Part shown: piece after piece, positions 10,601-59,291 of the stretch
How positions within the stretch are numbered: the first letter of the stretch is position 1
Layout of the letters: each line of letters starts with the position of its first letter
Assembly (NCBI RefSeq): GCF_006345805.1
Contig: NC_042998.1
Location: forward strand, 14,260,001 to 14,324,000
Direction of reading: 5' to 3'
DNA: 64,000 nt
DNA from: Octopus sinensis
Lineage: Eukaryota
Program-made: the position numbers and the translations under genes
The notes under the pieces: model-generated
What the model saw: the letters and a program-made list of their open reading frames with translations, nothing else
Database searches by the model: none
What the model was told of the DNA's origin: nothing

Positions 10601-12391
10601 AGTTAGTTAGTTAGTTAGTTAATTTGGCTCAAAAGCAAATAGCAAGGCCATGTAGGGGGACATGGAGTTAAGTACAGGATGGTGTTCATGTAAAGAGTTC
10701 AGGCCACTTGAGGTCCAGGGAGGCTTTGAGCAAAGCGGTCGTCGGCATCTTCACCATCTCGTCTGGCAGCTTGTTCCACGGATCCGCAACCCGGACGGAG
10801 AAAGCTCCTCTCCTTCGATTGAGATGAAATCGTCGCAGGTAGAGCTTTTCGGAATGACCCCGCAGCCGACGCTCTGGAGCAGGAGTGAAGAACAGCTCTT
10901 TCGAGAGGTTACACTTTCCGCTTATGATGTTGTGGGCGAGAATGAGATCACCACGGCGGCGGCGTTTTTCAAGAGAATAAAGGTCGAGCGTCCTTAGCCT
11001 TTCTTCGTAAGACAAATTTTTGAGACCATGAACCATGCGGGTAGCCAGCTTCTGGACTCTTTCGAGATGCTGTATGTCTTTGAGGAGATAAGGAGAAGAG
11101 GCTTGAATCCCATACTCCAATATGGGTCTCACCAGCGTGACATAGAGTGGCAGGAATATGGCTGCTGTGAGCATTCCGAATGACCGTCGAATCAAGAACA
11201 GAATTCCGCGTGCTTTGTTGGCAGCATGGACGCACTGGGCCGAAGGCGAAAAGGAGGAATCCACCAAGATACCCAGGTCCTTTACCTGATCGGTCCTCTC
11301 CAGCAGCAGACGACCCGGCTCGAAATCAAGTTGAGTTGCAGGAGTAGAGCCGACAGGCAGATGACAGCACTTTGACACGTTCAGACACAGGTCCCAATCG
11401 TTAGACCACTTCCAAATTTGGTGGAGGCATCGACGAAGATCCTCTATATTACCGCGAGGAGCGACCAGTTTGATATCGTCGGCAAATAGAAGGGTGTGTT
11501 GCGTGAGGTCGTCGGGCAAGTCATTTATGAAGACTAAGAACAACAAGGGCCCAAGCACTGAAACTTGACGTCGCACTGGAGACGTCGGACCGCGAACCAT
11601 TAACTTGGACTTGCAAGGAGAGATCTGAGAGGAAGGCACCAACCCATCGTACAATATCCGGATGGAAACTATATGCTTGAAGCTTGACAAGTAATAGGCG
11701 GTGGTTTACCGAGTCAAAAGTCCAATAAAACGATGTCAACAGCATCACTATCATCGAGGATGCGCGTCACCAATTCTTCCATTACTAGTAAGTTAGTCAA
11801 GCATGATCTCTTCGACACAAAGCCGTGTTGGGAATCAGAGATAGAGGCTGTGTTTAGGAGGTGGAGCATCATACTTTTCTTAAGGATGGTTTCGAACATC
11901 TTGCTGATTATTGATGTAAGGGAAACCGGTCGGTAGTTAAGCGGGTCTTCGCGGCTCCCTTTCTTGAAAATTGGGCAGATTATCGCTGTTCTCCAGTCTG
12001 CAGGTATAACACCCGTCGCCAATGACATATTGAATAGTCGTGTTAAGGGCTCGCAGATGACCGGAGCCAACGCTTTGATAACCCGTGGGTGTATGCCGTC
12101 AGGGCCGTGACCCTTGTTGACATCGAGGCCTTGAATAACACGTTTGACTTCGTCCCGCGTGATGACCAATCGAAGCATTGGAGGTACCGATCTATCAAAT
12201 GGAGGGGGTTCACGACCATCATCTTGTTTGAAAATAGTTGAAAAAGCCTCGGCAAATAATTGACTCTGTTGATAAGGGTCCTCAATCGATAAGCCTGTTG
12301 AGTCTACCAACGTTGCAATCTGGTTGTTCAAGCGGGAATTCCGCTGGACATGGGCAAAGAAGGTTTTTGGATTGCTACTGGCATTTGCCAT
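10601..12391 (-). mobile_element. 5'-truncated CR1/L2-group LINE, reverse transcriptase pseudogene
   Basis: NYRPVSLTS, QHGF, SCLTNL, LDF, SVLGPLLFLVFINDL, LFADDIKL, KDLGI, RPILEY, LERVQK, RRRRGDLI motifs split over frameshifted ORFs 11714-12391, 11521-11754 and 10686-11690; (AACT)n tail at 10601-10620. Confidence 0.95.
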
Positions 12392-12392
12392 T

Positions 12393-12776
12393 ATACTCTT
12401 TTACTCGATTAATTCAGTCATTTGACTGTGGCCATGCTGGAGCACCGCCTTTCGTCGAGCAAATCGACCCAGGACTTGTTCTTTGTAAGTCTAGTACTTA
12501 TTCTATCGGTCTCTTTTCCAACCATCGGTTGTCAAGCGATGTTGGGGGAACAAACACAGACACACATATACACTTACACACACACACACACACACCACAC
12601 ACATATATATATATATATGACGGGCTTCTTTCGGTTTCCCTCTACCAAATCCACTCACAAGGCTTTGGTCGGCCCGAGGCTATAGTAGAAGACACTTGCT
12701 CAAGATGCCACGCAGTGGGACTGAACCCGGAACCCTGTGGTTGGTAAACAAACTACGTACCACACCACTCCTGCGC

Positions 12777-55970: not shown

Positions 55971-56019
<49 letters not shown>

Positions 56020-56320
56020 TCTTGAATTCGCCTTAAATGTTCCTTTTACATACTGAACACTTGGTGAAATTGATTAATTAATTTTACCCTCAATTGTTGA
56101 TATTATAATTCATTTCTCTCTGTCATACTGCCTCGGTTCTCGCGGTAAAATATAATGTTTGCTAGATAGACCACGTGGGTGGAAAAGGAGTGCAGAAATT
56201 TACGCCTGCGCATTTTGAATTTGTTGGCACTGTCAGTTGGAGCTGGTTCATTTGAAGCGACAAGTTCGCAGATAGGTAAGGTTCCTTCTTTTTAGTGTTT
56301 CCAAATCCAAATTAAGAAAT

Positions 56321-56383
56321 TTTGAGCTGACGAAAGAAATGCTGATTTTACTTGGCTAATCTTGAAACGTTGACGTACTCAAA
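56321..56383 (+). ncRNA. Type I hammerhead ribozyme, unit 1
   Basis: Helix I tttgag/ctcaaa; core CUGACGA; helix II aaga/tctt plus gctga/ttggc; GAAA; helix III cg-ttga-cg; GUA cleavage triplet (cut after 56377). Confidence 0.85.
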
Positions 56384-56881
56384 CGATCTATGTACTTGTG
56401 ATATTTTTCTGTATTTACCTCCAAACCTTCGTGAGCTGTCTGGAGTAAACATTATCTGAGAGAAATTTTCTTTAAGTAGTAGAAACGGGTAAAAAAATTT
56501 TCCTTGGCTGCTATTTCTACTAAGTTCAGTATGTGGCAAAGTAATTTATTTTACTAAGCCCTAATTATATAATGTAATATTTTGAATTCGCCTTAAATGG
56601 TCCTTTTACATATTGAACACTTGGTGAAATTGATTAATTAATTTTACCCTCAATTGTCGATATTATAATTCATTTCGCTCTGTCATACTGCCTCGGTTCT
56701 CGCGGTTAAAATATAATGTTTGCTAGATAGACCACGTGGGTGGAAAAGGAGTGCAGAAATTTACACCTGCGCATTTTGAATTTGTTGGCACTGTCAGTTG
56801 GAGCTGGTTCATTTGAAGCGACAAGTTCGCAGATAGGTAAGGTTCCTTCTTTTTAGTGTTTCCAAATCCAAATTAAGAAAT

Positions 56882-56944
56882 TTTGAGCTGACGAAAGAAA
56901 TGCTGATTTTACTTGGCTAATCTTGAAACGTTGACGTACTAAAA
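56882..56944 (+). ncRNA. Type I hammerhead ribozyme, unit 2 (helix I mismatch)
   Basis: Same core; C>A at 56941 breaks one helix I pair; cut after 56938. Confidence 0.75.
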
Positions 56945-57438
56945 CGATCTATGTATGTGATATTTTTCTGTATTGACCTCCAAACCTTCGTGAGCTGTCT
57001 GGAGTAAACATTATCTGAGAGAAATTTTCTTTAAGTAGTAGAAACGGGTAAAAAAATTTTCTTTGGCTGCTATTTCTACTAAGTTCAGTATGTGGCAAAG
57101 TAATTTATTTTACTAAGCCCTAATTATATAATGTAATATTTTGAATTCGCCTTAAATGGTCCTTTTACATATTGAACACTTGGTGAAATTGATTAATTAA
57201 TTTTACCCTCAATTGTCGATATTATAATTCATTTCGCTCTGTCATACTGCCTCGGTTCTCGCGGTAAAATATAATGTTTGCTAGATAGACCACGTGGGTG
57301 GAAAAGAGTGCAGAAATTTACACCTGCGCATTTTGAATTTGTTGGCACTGTCAGTTGGAGCTGGTTCATTTGAAGCGACAAGTTCGCAGATAGGTAAGGT
57401 TCCTTCTTTTTAGTGTTTCCAAATCCAAATTAAGAAAT

Positions 57439-57500
57439 TTTGAGCTGACGAAAGAATGCTGATTTTACTTGGCTAATCTTGAAACGTTGACGTACTCAAA
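57439..57500 (+). ncRNA. Type I hammerhead ribozyme, unit 3
   Basis: Intact helices and core; cut after 57494. Confidence 0.85.
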
Positions 57501-57681
57501 CGATCTATGTACTTGTGATATTTTTCTGTATTTACCTCCAAACCTTCGTGAGCTGTCTGGAGTAAACATATCTGAGAGAAATTTTCTTTAAGTAGTAGAA
57601 ACGGCTAAAAAAACTTTTTTTGGCTGCTATTTCTACTAAGTTCAGTATGTGGCAAAGTAATTTATTTTACTAAGCCCTAAT

Positions 57682-57740
<59 letters not shown>

Positions 57741-57842
57741 AATAATAATAATAATAATATTAGGAATAAATACAAACTTACAGGGAAAAATTAGATTTAG
57801 GATTAAATCCAATTTTATAGTATAAATATATTATATTATATT

Positions 57843-58047
57843 ATATTGAATTAGAGATAAAACCACTATTAGGCAAATCGAACAGTGAAAAACATAAGCC
57901 AATACATAAAATTAATTTTAAAATACAAAAGTTATTTAAATAATTTTTTAGATTTTAACTTTTATATTTTTAAATTAATTTTATGTATTGGCTTATGTTT
58001 TTCACTGTTTGACTTGCCTAATAGTGGTTTTATCTCTAATTTAATAT
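57843..58047. repeat. Inverted repeat, ~80-bp arms
   Basis: aattagagataaaaccactattaggcaa...aagccaatacataaaattaattt versus its reverse complement at about 57965-58047. Confidence 0.9.
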
Positions 58048-58154: not shown

Positions 58155-58370
58155 TAGTTAATCCAAACATGAAAACACAAAGAGAAAACACAACAACGCG
58201 AGAACGTGGAACAAGTATAGTATTATTGGACGATCAGGAAAGAAGGAAAGAAGAAGGGTTTAACATTTCGAGTGGAGCTCTTCGTCAGAAACAAAGGAAA
58301 AGGAAAGATCCAGAGAAGGGAAGACGGAGGGAAAAAAATCGCCAACGGTACACACGCGGTCACATTTTGA
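58155..58370 (-). mobile_element. Penelope pLTR-like repeat with minimal hammerhead motif, copy 3
   Basis: Minus strand 58258-58292 gttt CTGACGA a gagc tcc actc GAAA tg TT aaac. Confidence 0.68.
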
Positions 58371-58404: not shown

Positions 58405-58578
58405 CAACTTATAAATAAGGGCAAAAGAAAAAAGAATTCCTATGCCAAATATGCTGAGAATAGACTTTAAATCGTCAATAACCACATAAATTATATATGT
58501 AGTTATTGACGATTCAAAGTCTATTCACGGAATATTTGGCATAGAATATTTTTTTCTTTGGTTCTTATTTATAAGTTG
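58405..58578. repeat. Inverted repeat, ~83-bp arms, short loop
   Basis: caacttataaataag...gactttaaatcgtcaataaccacata / tatgtagttattgacgattcaaagtc...cttatttataagttg. Confidence 0.9.
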
Positions 58579-59291
58579 AATATAATTTTCATCTTAAAAG
58601 GTATTTTTTAATATGCTGGCCACTGATAAATTTTTTGAAAGATTTATCCTATATTAGATGTATATAATATAGATATATATACGTGCATATATGCATGCAA
58701 ACATATCTATATCTAAATATATATGTGTGTGTGTATATATATATGTATGCATGTATATGTGTATATGTGTATATATGTGTGTATATGTGTGCGTCTTTGT
58801 GTCTGTGTTTGTCCTGCACCACCACTTGACAGCCAGTGATGGTGTGTTTACTTACGTAACCGAAACCTAGGGATTTAGCAAAAAAAGATCGATAGAATAA
58901 GAACTAGTTTTATAAAAAAAAATAGTTCTACTAAGAATTCTTCAAGGTGGTACACCACCATAACCGCAGTCTGAAAACTGGAACAAATAGAAGTTAAAAG
59001 ATAAAATATAAGTGGGAACACAGAACTACCAATATCTAATATGTTCTTTGTATAGTAAACTTGTAGCGATTGATTTTAGGGAGTTTGGGATATTTCTTAC
59101 AGACCTAGCGACCTTTTAGAAACGAAACTTCTGCTTTAGATTATCAGAATGGCTCTCATAATTGGTGATCGCATTTGTTAGTATTGTTGCTGTGGATTAG
59201 CCCACCGTTTGCTCTTTTTCAGTGGGTCTTATGATTCAAAATTTGAAGCTATGACCATCTTATCCGTTCTGTGAAACAAGGAAAAAATTGT

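What the first reader, a model, noticed from the sequence alone, without database searches (positions are those of the whole stretch)
56022..57689. Retrozyme-like array: three ~560-bp tandem units, each with a complete type I hammerhead ribozyme
Seen: each unit contains tttgag-CTGACGA-aaga(aat gctga ttttac ttggc taa)tctt-GAAA-cg ttga cg-TA-ctcaaa. That gives a 6-bp helix I (extendable by aga/tct beyond a 3x3 internal loop), a canonical core, a bulged helix II, a short helix III and a GUA triplet. The units have no credible ORF and the array sits in (TA)n. Established: non-LTR retrozymes of metazoans are non-coding tandem repeats with type I hammerheads that self-cleave to monomers, circularise, and are thought to be mobilised by Penelope-like RTs; described monomers are usually shorter. 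Inference: cleavage after 56377, 56938 and 57494 would release 561- and 556-nt monomers, i.e. a long-monomer circular-RNA-forming mobile element whose integer three-unit array fits rolling reverse transcription of a circle. I cannot tell whether this family is already described.
Basis: partly seen in the sequence, partly recalled or inferred. Interest (0 to 1): 0.9.

Follow-up and report, generated by a model that had tools for sequence, protein, structure and literature searches.

The report
Hammerhead retrozyme with Penelope-type insertions
This is one of thousands of genomic copies of a 560-base, protein-free repeat that carries a predicted self-cutting RNA (a hammerhead ribozyme) and sits in TA microsatellites with the ends typical of Penelope-like jumping genes, which likely copy it; the kind is known from many animals, and neither cutting nor RNA circles have been shown for this family.

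Summary
The array is real: three head-to-tail units (56022-57689, about 98% identical, no ORF) in (TA)n, each with a type I hammerhead core. Unit 2 has a helix I mismatch. It is one locus of a large family: a 26-base end motif has 7,312 exact genomic hits. Hammerhead helices covary across subfamilies and a 600-bp relative, and helix III stays self-complementary, as in dimer-acting hammerheads. Of 100 sampled insertions, 71 are two head-to-head arms; in 64 of these one arm ends at one fixed site and the other about 100 bases further on. That is the Penelope 'tail' signature. [quoted passage not shown] Two claims weaken: 560 bases is within a published range (51-972), and the 'integer trimer from one circle' argument fails, because adjacent units share locus-private alleles pairwise and integer arrays are not enriched. 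A pile-up of 5' ends at the cleavage site did not replicate. Cleavage and circles are untested.

The parts
55974..56016 (.). (TA)n tract, left flank of the insertion (target site)
56022..56581 (+). Unit 1 (560 bp); its start is a 5' truncation point inside the tail region, not a natural element end
56582..57140 (+). Unit 2 (559 bp); mosaic: 5' part shares private alleles with unit 3, 3' part with unit 1
57141..57689 (+). Unit 3 (549 bp), ending at the family's fixed 3' end 'A' and running into (TA)n
56315..56389 (+). Hammerhead 1, type I: extended helix I, core CUGACGA/GAAA, bulged helix II, self-complementary helix III strand, predicted cut after 56377
56876..56950 (+). Hammerhead 2: core intact, helix I broken by C>A at 56941; predicted cut after 56938
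57433..57506 (+). Hammerhead 3: complete, one base shorter in the helix II bulge; predicted cut after 57494
56574..56667 (+). 'Tail': about 95-100 nt between the family's two alternative 3' ends (internal copy; a second lies at about 57133-57226)
56623..56648 (+). Conserved tail hairpin closed by GGUG/UACC (also 56063-56088 and 57182-57207); candidate binding or start site for the Penelope protein (inferred)
57690..57741 (.). (TA)n tract, right flank

Best explanation
The array is one insertion of a protein-free, 560-base repeat family with a predicted type I hammerhead ribozyme in each unit (a non-LTR retrozyme), likely copied into (TA)n tracts by the reverse transcriptase-endonuclease of a Penelope-like element acting in trans. 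Shown: thousands of dispersed copies, TA targets, random 5' truncation, head-to-head arms, two fixed 3' ends about 100 nt apart, and a hammerhead fold and a tail hairpin kept by covariation. Inferred: arrays are transcribed as multimers; pairs of hammerheads fold together through the self-complementary helix III and cut; monomers would be ligated to circles as shown for coral, mussel and axolotl retrozymes; the Penelope protein would nick both strands of a TA tract, start cDNA inside the RNA at the two sites flanking the tail, and run on through successive units, most likely round a circle; the two cDNAs would then join at their truncated ends. This particular trimer was likely a dimer that gained a unit later by local duplication or conversion. 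Identity of the element about 0.9; circle as main template about 0.55.
For: Copy number: 139 matches from 40 of 2,103 candidates scored, full units 93-98% identical; 7,312 exact hits of a 26-nt end motif, control 0; 953 of a window-subfamily 41-mer. Anatomy of 100 insertions in 107 loci: 96 with TA on both flanks, 71 inverted, 64 of those 71 with one arm ending at end A and the other at the tail end (60 of the loci were picked by an end-A+TA pattern, so one flank is by selection there). This matches Fig. 2 legend of Craig et al. and the two internal RT start sites bracketing the tail in Frangieh et al.. The two arms come from one source: median difference 0, maximum 0.043, against 0.055 to other loci, in 43 insertions. 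Units mostly group by locus, inverted ones included (tree). Ribozyme: core intact in 66 of 69 window-subfamily units and 116 of 176 units of the 107-locus sample; position 7 varies (C/U/A) and position 17 is A, U or C; helix I goes U-A > U.G > C-G in one lineage; the homologous 600-bp family D (score 44, shuffle maximum 33) and family B change helices I and II but keep the pairing, and the helix III strand is self-complementary in all five types. Reverse transcription passes the cut site freely: 80 of 174 5' ends lie upstream of it. An intact young RT + GIY-YIG family exists in the genome (781 aa, about 99% identity among copies).
Against: No cleavage or circle data. No autonomous partner sharing the unit's sequence or tail was found among 30 GIY-YIG loci and 16 longer stretches; only 150 of 5,029 candidates were scored. 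The tail is about 100 nt, against 30-40 in print. In vitro, hammerhead mutants of the anole Penelope insert normally and uncut RNA is the main substrate. Only 1 of 9 Xenopus dimers cleaved. 51 of 176 units carry a U4C core, which lowers activity in vitro, yet that lineage spread. The window's units share private alleles only pairwise. Within-array difference (median 1.1%) is barely below that to the nearest other locus (1.3%; lower in 18 of 26 arrays), so homogeneity discriminates weakly between a circle and a uniform multimer. Rfam gives no hit.
Confidence: 0.6

Rival explanations
1. Same element and same Penelope machinery, but the template is the uncut linear multimeric transcript; the hammerhead only trims transcripts slowly or acts as a structure, circles are by-products or absent, and long arrays are renewed by local DNA duplication.
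For: Hammerhead mutants do not affect Penelope insertion in vitro; a U4C lineage amplified (51 of 176 units); the window trimer looks locally duplicated; no replicated pile-up of 5' ends at the cut site.
Against: Helix pairing and the palindromic helix III are kept across families, even inside the U4C lineage; U4C supports viroid infectivity in vivo and U10.1-U11.1 is tolerated; several young arrays have identical or nearly identical units (0.000-0.005) and a family B array has 17 units between an inverted head and a tail end, while the median insertion is about one unit.
Confidence: 0.3
2. The units are pseudo-LTR debris of an autonomous Penelope-like element that I did not find, not a self-standing non-autonomous family.
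For: The insertion anatomy is that of Penelope elements; Xenopus retrozymes are homologous to pLTRs; the search of Penelope ORFs was far from complete.
Against: Units join head-to-tail with no ORF between them; in 107 sampled loci no Penelope coding sequence is joined upstream of a unit (tblastn hits in 6 loci lay 3' of the element or hundreds of bases away); the subfamilies each form their own arrays.
Confidence: 0.07
3. A local tandem duplication, satellite or assembly artefact with a chance hammerhead-like motif.
For: Several unit differences are one-base homopolymer indels of the kind long-read assemblies make (recalled pattern); raw reads of this locus were not seen; no Rfam hit.
Against: 0 of 5,000 shuffles match the descriptor; thousands of dispersed copies; covariation; the junction is in contigs of 3 of 4 runs. 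An artefact could at most explain the third unit.
Confidence: 0.03

Closest known systems
Metazoan non-LTR retrozymes (Cervera and de la Pena 2020, PMC7229834; passages and sections 14 and 17 read, supplement unreadable)
   Same: Non-coding tandem units, GC 35% (under 45%), one canonical type I hammerhead per unit, short palindromic helix III as in dimer-acting salamander ribozymes, coexistence with Penelope elements.
   Different: Unit 560 nt against about 170-400 nt; no octopus or cephalopod in its main text; it shows cleavage and circles, which are untested here; the parts I read only suggest Penelope mobilisation and describe no inverted arms or tails.
Animal retrozymes as non-autonomous Penelope sequences (Li, Clavereau and Pollet 2026, bioRxiv 10.64898/2026.07.22.740005; parts 1-3 of 5 read, supplements closed)
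   Same: Same class; size within their 51-972 bp range; mostly few units per array.
   Different: Their sample is 31 vertebrates, 3 insects and a coral; they argue from co-occurrence and pLTR homology, whereas here the link is insertion anatomy and no homologous pLTR was found.
Penelope-like elements and their non-autonomous forms (Craig et al. 2021, PMC8557442, 12 passages and a supplement search; Frangieh et al. 2024, PMC11167929, parts 1-2 of 4; Cervera and de la Pena 2014, PMC4209133, part 1 of 4)
   Same: Partial tandems, inverted 5'-truncated arm, tail at one end only, microsatellite targets without clear target duplication, hammerhead near the end, multicopy head-to-tail non-autonomous insertions (MRC1).
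   Different: No ORF; tail about 100 nt (about 140 in family B) against 30-40; canonical rather than minimal hammerhead.

Membership tests
Non-LTR retrozyme | Tandem repeat of two or more units, each with a type I hammerhead | tested here: met
   three cores; units 1 and 3 complete, unit 2 with a helix I mismatch, so the two complete ribozymes are not consecutive at this locus; family-wide 66 of 69 units have an intact core
Non-LTR retrozyme | No protein coding capacity | tested here: met
   Longest stop-free frame 66 codons; longest ATG ORF inside the array 46 aa; no significant match to three Penelope proteins
Non-LTR retrozyme | Small, AT-rich monomer | tested here: met
   561/556 nt, GC 0.35; inside 51-972 bp, above the 170-400 nt
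Non-LTR retrozyme | Dispersed multicopy family, in a genome with autonomous Penelope elements | tested here: met
Non-LTR retrozyme | Self-cleavage of the transcript | not testable with these tools
   Only indirect: covariation; the 5'-end test did not replicate
Non-LTR retrozyme | Accumulation as circular RNA | not testable with these tools
   Only contigs could be laid; predicted circular monomers fold better than shuffles, z -4.0 and -3.4, 40 shuffles each
Penelope-like element (insertion signature) | Partial tandems with an inverted 5'-truncated arm | tested here: met
   71 of 100 insertions inverted; the window copy itself is not inverted
Penelope-like element (insertion signature) | Tail: two alternative 3' ends, extension at one end only | tested here: met
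   64 of 71 inverted insertions; about 100 nt rather than 30-40
Penelope-like element (insertion signature) | Microsatellite target | tested here: met
   96 of 100 insertions with TA on both flanks, 4 on one
Autonomous Penelope-like element | ORF with reverse transcriptase and GIY-YIG endonuclease between pLTRs | tested here: not met
   None joined upstream of a unit in 107 loci
Non-autonomous derivative of a named Penelope family | Homology to the pLTR of an autonomous partner | tested here: inconclusive
   None in 46 GIY-YIG loci and stretches; only 150 of 5,029 candidates scored, 30 fetched
Rfam hammerhead families | Score against the covariance models | tested here: not met
   no hammerhead family listed

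The most novel reading that the evidence does not exclude
This genome holds a guild of long-tailed retrozymes (families A, B, D and their subfamilies) that share one Penelope enzyme through a common tail hairpin; a protein dimer starts two cDNAs at two sites 100-140 nt apart on ribozyme-made RNA circles and joins them head to head, sometimes switching between circles of different families (two chimeric insertions seen). The insertions would then be a genomic record of rolling reverse transcription of circular RNA in an animal.
Probability: 0.3. Interest if true: 0.75.

Novelty: new member of a known kind. Interest (0 to 1): 0.45.

Why it matters
Which enzyme moves animal retrozymes, and whether the ribozyme-made circle is the real template, are open questions; the papers I read argue from co-occurrence and terminal-repeat homology. 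This family gives a direct footprint: thousands of young insertions with the two-start-site tail and inverted arms of Penelope elements, natural core variants (U4C) that still spread, and a conserved hairpin that predicts where the enzyme binds. It makes the template question testable. The locus itself is an ordinary copy of that family.

Tried and rejected
1. 5' ends piling up at the cut site (would show cleavage in vivo). Discovery: 14 of 151 ends at offsets 0-14 against 32 in the flanking 120 nt, p=3e-4 (window chosen after looking, two ends from a biased query); 11 against 16 in the 47 unbiased loci. Test written down beforehand and run on 60 new loci: 4 against 32, p=0.58. Rejected. The replicate used the first 60 of 87 new places listed and no window-subfamily loci. 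2. Autonomous partner: none found; the young 781-aa family has no DNA homology to the unit, no canonical hammerhead by my descriptor and what looks like its own short tail. 3. Homology of family B to the unit: not detectable (score 21, shuffles 22.6+-2.6); it shares architecture only. 4. Expression: no RNA holder listed; 20 rows in 8 studies and five organism labels hold part of the unit, RNA status only guessed; contigs cannot show starts or ends. Not used as evidence. 5. Rfam: no hammerhead hit. 6. End motif in metagenome contigs: 0. 7. Earlier scan notes: none by sequence or in this genome. 8. Literature: no description of this family in searches or in the passages; the supplement of PMC7229834 and the bioRxiv supplements were not readable, and no repeat library (Repbase, Dfam) was available, so it may be catalogued there.

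Full report
OBSERVATION. Each has CTGACGA ... GAAA ... GTA, with predicted cuts after 56377, 56938 and 57494. With the core held open, unit 1 folds into a 6-bp helix I extended by AGA/UCU past a 3x3 loop, a bulged helix II and a 3-bp helix III; a strict descriptor finds this in 0 of 5,000 shuffles. Unit 2 has C>A at 56941 and loses helix I. There is no ORF. Rfam's hammerhead models do not match. The host is likely an octopus; this rests on recalled repeat sequences, not on a call.

A LARGE FAMILY. The unit has 139 matches among the 40 of 2,103 candidate places scored, full units being 93-98% identical, on many contigs. A 26-nt motif at the unit end has 7,312 exact hits, control 0; the first 100 fall in 47 loci, which extrapolates to roughly 3,400 loci. 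The window's subfamily (A) accounts for 953 hits of a 41-mer. Subfamilies A1 (558 bp) and A2 (542 bp) are about 77% identical to A overall by BLAST (A1), 92-93% over the last 59 nt and 82-84% in the tail, but 60-62% in the middle. Family D (600 bp) is homologous (score 44, shuffle maximum 33 of 200); family B (533 bp) is not detectably so.

THE RIBOZYME IS CONSERVED AS A STRUCTURE. The core is intact in 66 of 69 A-type units of the A-enriched set and in 116 of 176 units spanning it in the 107-locus sample; 51 carry U4C and 9 other changes. Position 7 takes C, U or A and position 17 A, U or C, as the hammerhead consensus allows (established knowledge). In the U4C lineage one helix I pair goes U-A to U.G to C-G. 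D and B have different helix I and II sequences that still pair, and the helix III strand is self-complementary in all five types, 10 of 10 positions in A. A short palindromic helix III is the mark of hammerheads that work as dimers in tandem repeats (PMC4209133; PMC3088659). U4C lowers activity in vitro but supports viroid infectivity, and the U10.1-U11.1 mismatch common in A1/A2 is tolerated. Activity itself is predicted, not shown.

THE INSERTIONS CARRY THE PENELOPE SIGNATURE. Of 100 insertions fully inside 107 loci, 96 have TA on both flanks; 71 consist of two head-to-head arms; in 64 of these one arm stops at end A (the point where the window array stops) and the other about 100 nt further, at the end of a tail (60 loci were selected on an end-A+TA pattern; the 46 unselected insertions give 44, 31 and 28). 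Craig et al. describe partial tandems, an inverted truncated arm, a 30-40-bp tail at one end and microsatellite targets for Penelope-like elements. Frangieh et al. show that the anole protein nicks and extends both strands at AT-rich DNA and starts reverse transcription inside the RNA at two sites that bracket the tail. The tail here holds a hairpin closed by GGUG/YRCC in A, A1, A2, D and B, a candidate recognition site (inferred). Both arms come from the same source: median difference 0, none above 0.043, against 0.055 to other loci, in 43 insertions. Family B shows the same anatomy with a tail of about 140 nt and arrays up to 17 units. Two insertions join different families with no TA between them (A1 to D in L173, B to A in L198), which suggests a shared enzyme and template switching, though later rearrangement is not excluded.

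NON-AUTONOMOUS, PARTNER UNKNOWN. No Penelope coding sequence lies joined upstream of a unit in the 107 loci. [quoted passage not shown] Only 150 of 5,029 candidates were scored.

CIRCLE OR MULTIMER. Reverse transcription crosses the cut site freely: 80 of 174 5' ends lie upstream of it, besides all full units. A linear cut monomer therefore cannot be the only template; a circle or an uncut multimer is needed. For a circle: conserved ribozyme, units that mostly group by locus across both strands, some arrays with identical units, long arrays although the median insertion is about one unit, and circles shown for other retrozymes. Against: hammerhead mutants of the anole element insert normally; only 1 of 9 Xenopus dimers cleaved; the U4C lineage spread; within-array difference (1.1%) is close to that to the nearest other locus (1.3%), lower in 18 of 26 arrays. 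A pile-up of 5' ends just after the cut site appeared in the first sample and failed in a test fixed beforehand on 60 new loci (4 against 32, p=0.58). I put the circle at about 0.55.

THIS TRIMER. Against 30 other A loci, units 2 and 3 share four alleles found nowhere else in their 5' parts, units 1 and 2 share two in their 3' parts, units 1 and 3 share one homopolymer deletion, and no locus-private allele is shared by all three. A single pass round one circle followed by independent mutation would not give this; duplication of a 560-bp stretch across a dimer's junction, gene conversion or an assembly mosaic would. Near-integer length is not enriched in the family (8 of 102).

COMPARISON AND NOVELTY. 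The element meets every testable feature of a non-LTR retrozyme; cleavage and circles could not be tested. Its size is above the 170-400 nt of Cervera and de la Pena and inside the 51-972 bp of Li et al.. I found no description of it in searches or the passages; unread supplements and repeat libraries may hold it. Earlier scan notes report a sea-squirt retrozyme and ribozyme-free tandem units with Penelope-type ends in other genomes (unchecked), so the anatomy is probably not unique. Verdict: a new member of a known kind, with an unusually clear footprint of Penelope mobilisation and a long tail. Interest 0.45.

Noticed in passing
window 57740-58045: A second element with inverted arms and a tail-like extension shares the same TA tract; similar sequence at L065:900-1060. 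Read, not aligned by a tool.
   Followed up: no
window 58266-58288, minus strand: Minimal hammerhead-like core (CUGACGA, short helix II, GAAA) inside another repeat that ends in (TA)n; probably a further Penelope-type family.
   Followed up: no
window 58420-58660: Inverted fragment of another repeat family; related sequence at L063:60-360 carries a hammerhead-like core.
   Followed up: no
window 22808-22916: Full-length U6 snRNA match, 111.9 bits; gene or pseudogene not determined.
   Followed up: no
window 10686-12400, minus strand: Two frames with RVT_1 matches, a broken LINE-type element.
   Followed up: partly
L063-L067 (G000): Young intact Penelope-like family, 781-aa RT + GIY-YIG frame, about 99% identical copies, with an overlapping upstream frame of 479 aa, repeated CRE/CCAAT-like motifs in the 3' UTR (labels recalled) and no canonical hammerhead by my descriptor.
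   Followed up: partly
L197, L065:5964-7060, L104-L122: Retrozyme family B: 533-bp unit, long helix II, GUC triplet, tail about 140 nt, arrays up to 17 units.
   Followed up: partly
L173:742-4301 and L198:957-4206: Chimeric insertions joining A1 to family D (600-bp unit with its own hammerhead) and family B to A without a TA spacer.
   Followed up: partly
L200 and other A2 loci: A subfamily with a U4C hammerhead core has spread widely (51 of 176 sampled units) while keeping helix I by a compensatory change.
   Followed up: partly
window 56175-56300: Upstream of the ribozyme lie an E-box-like CACGTG and a splice-donor-like AG/GTAAG (labels recalled); Penelope pLTRs hold a promoter and an intron start. 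The donor-like motif is not kept in A1/A2.
   Followed up: no
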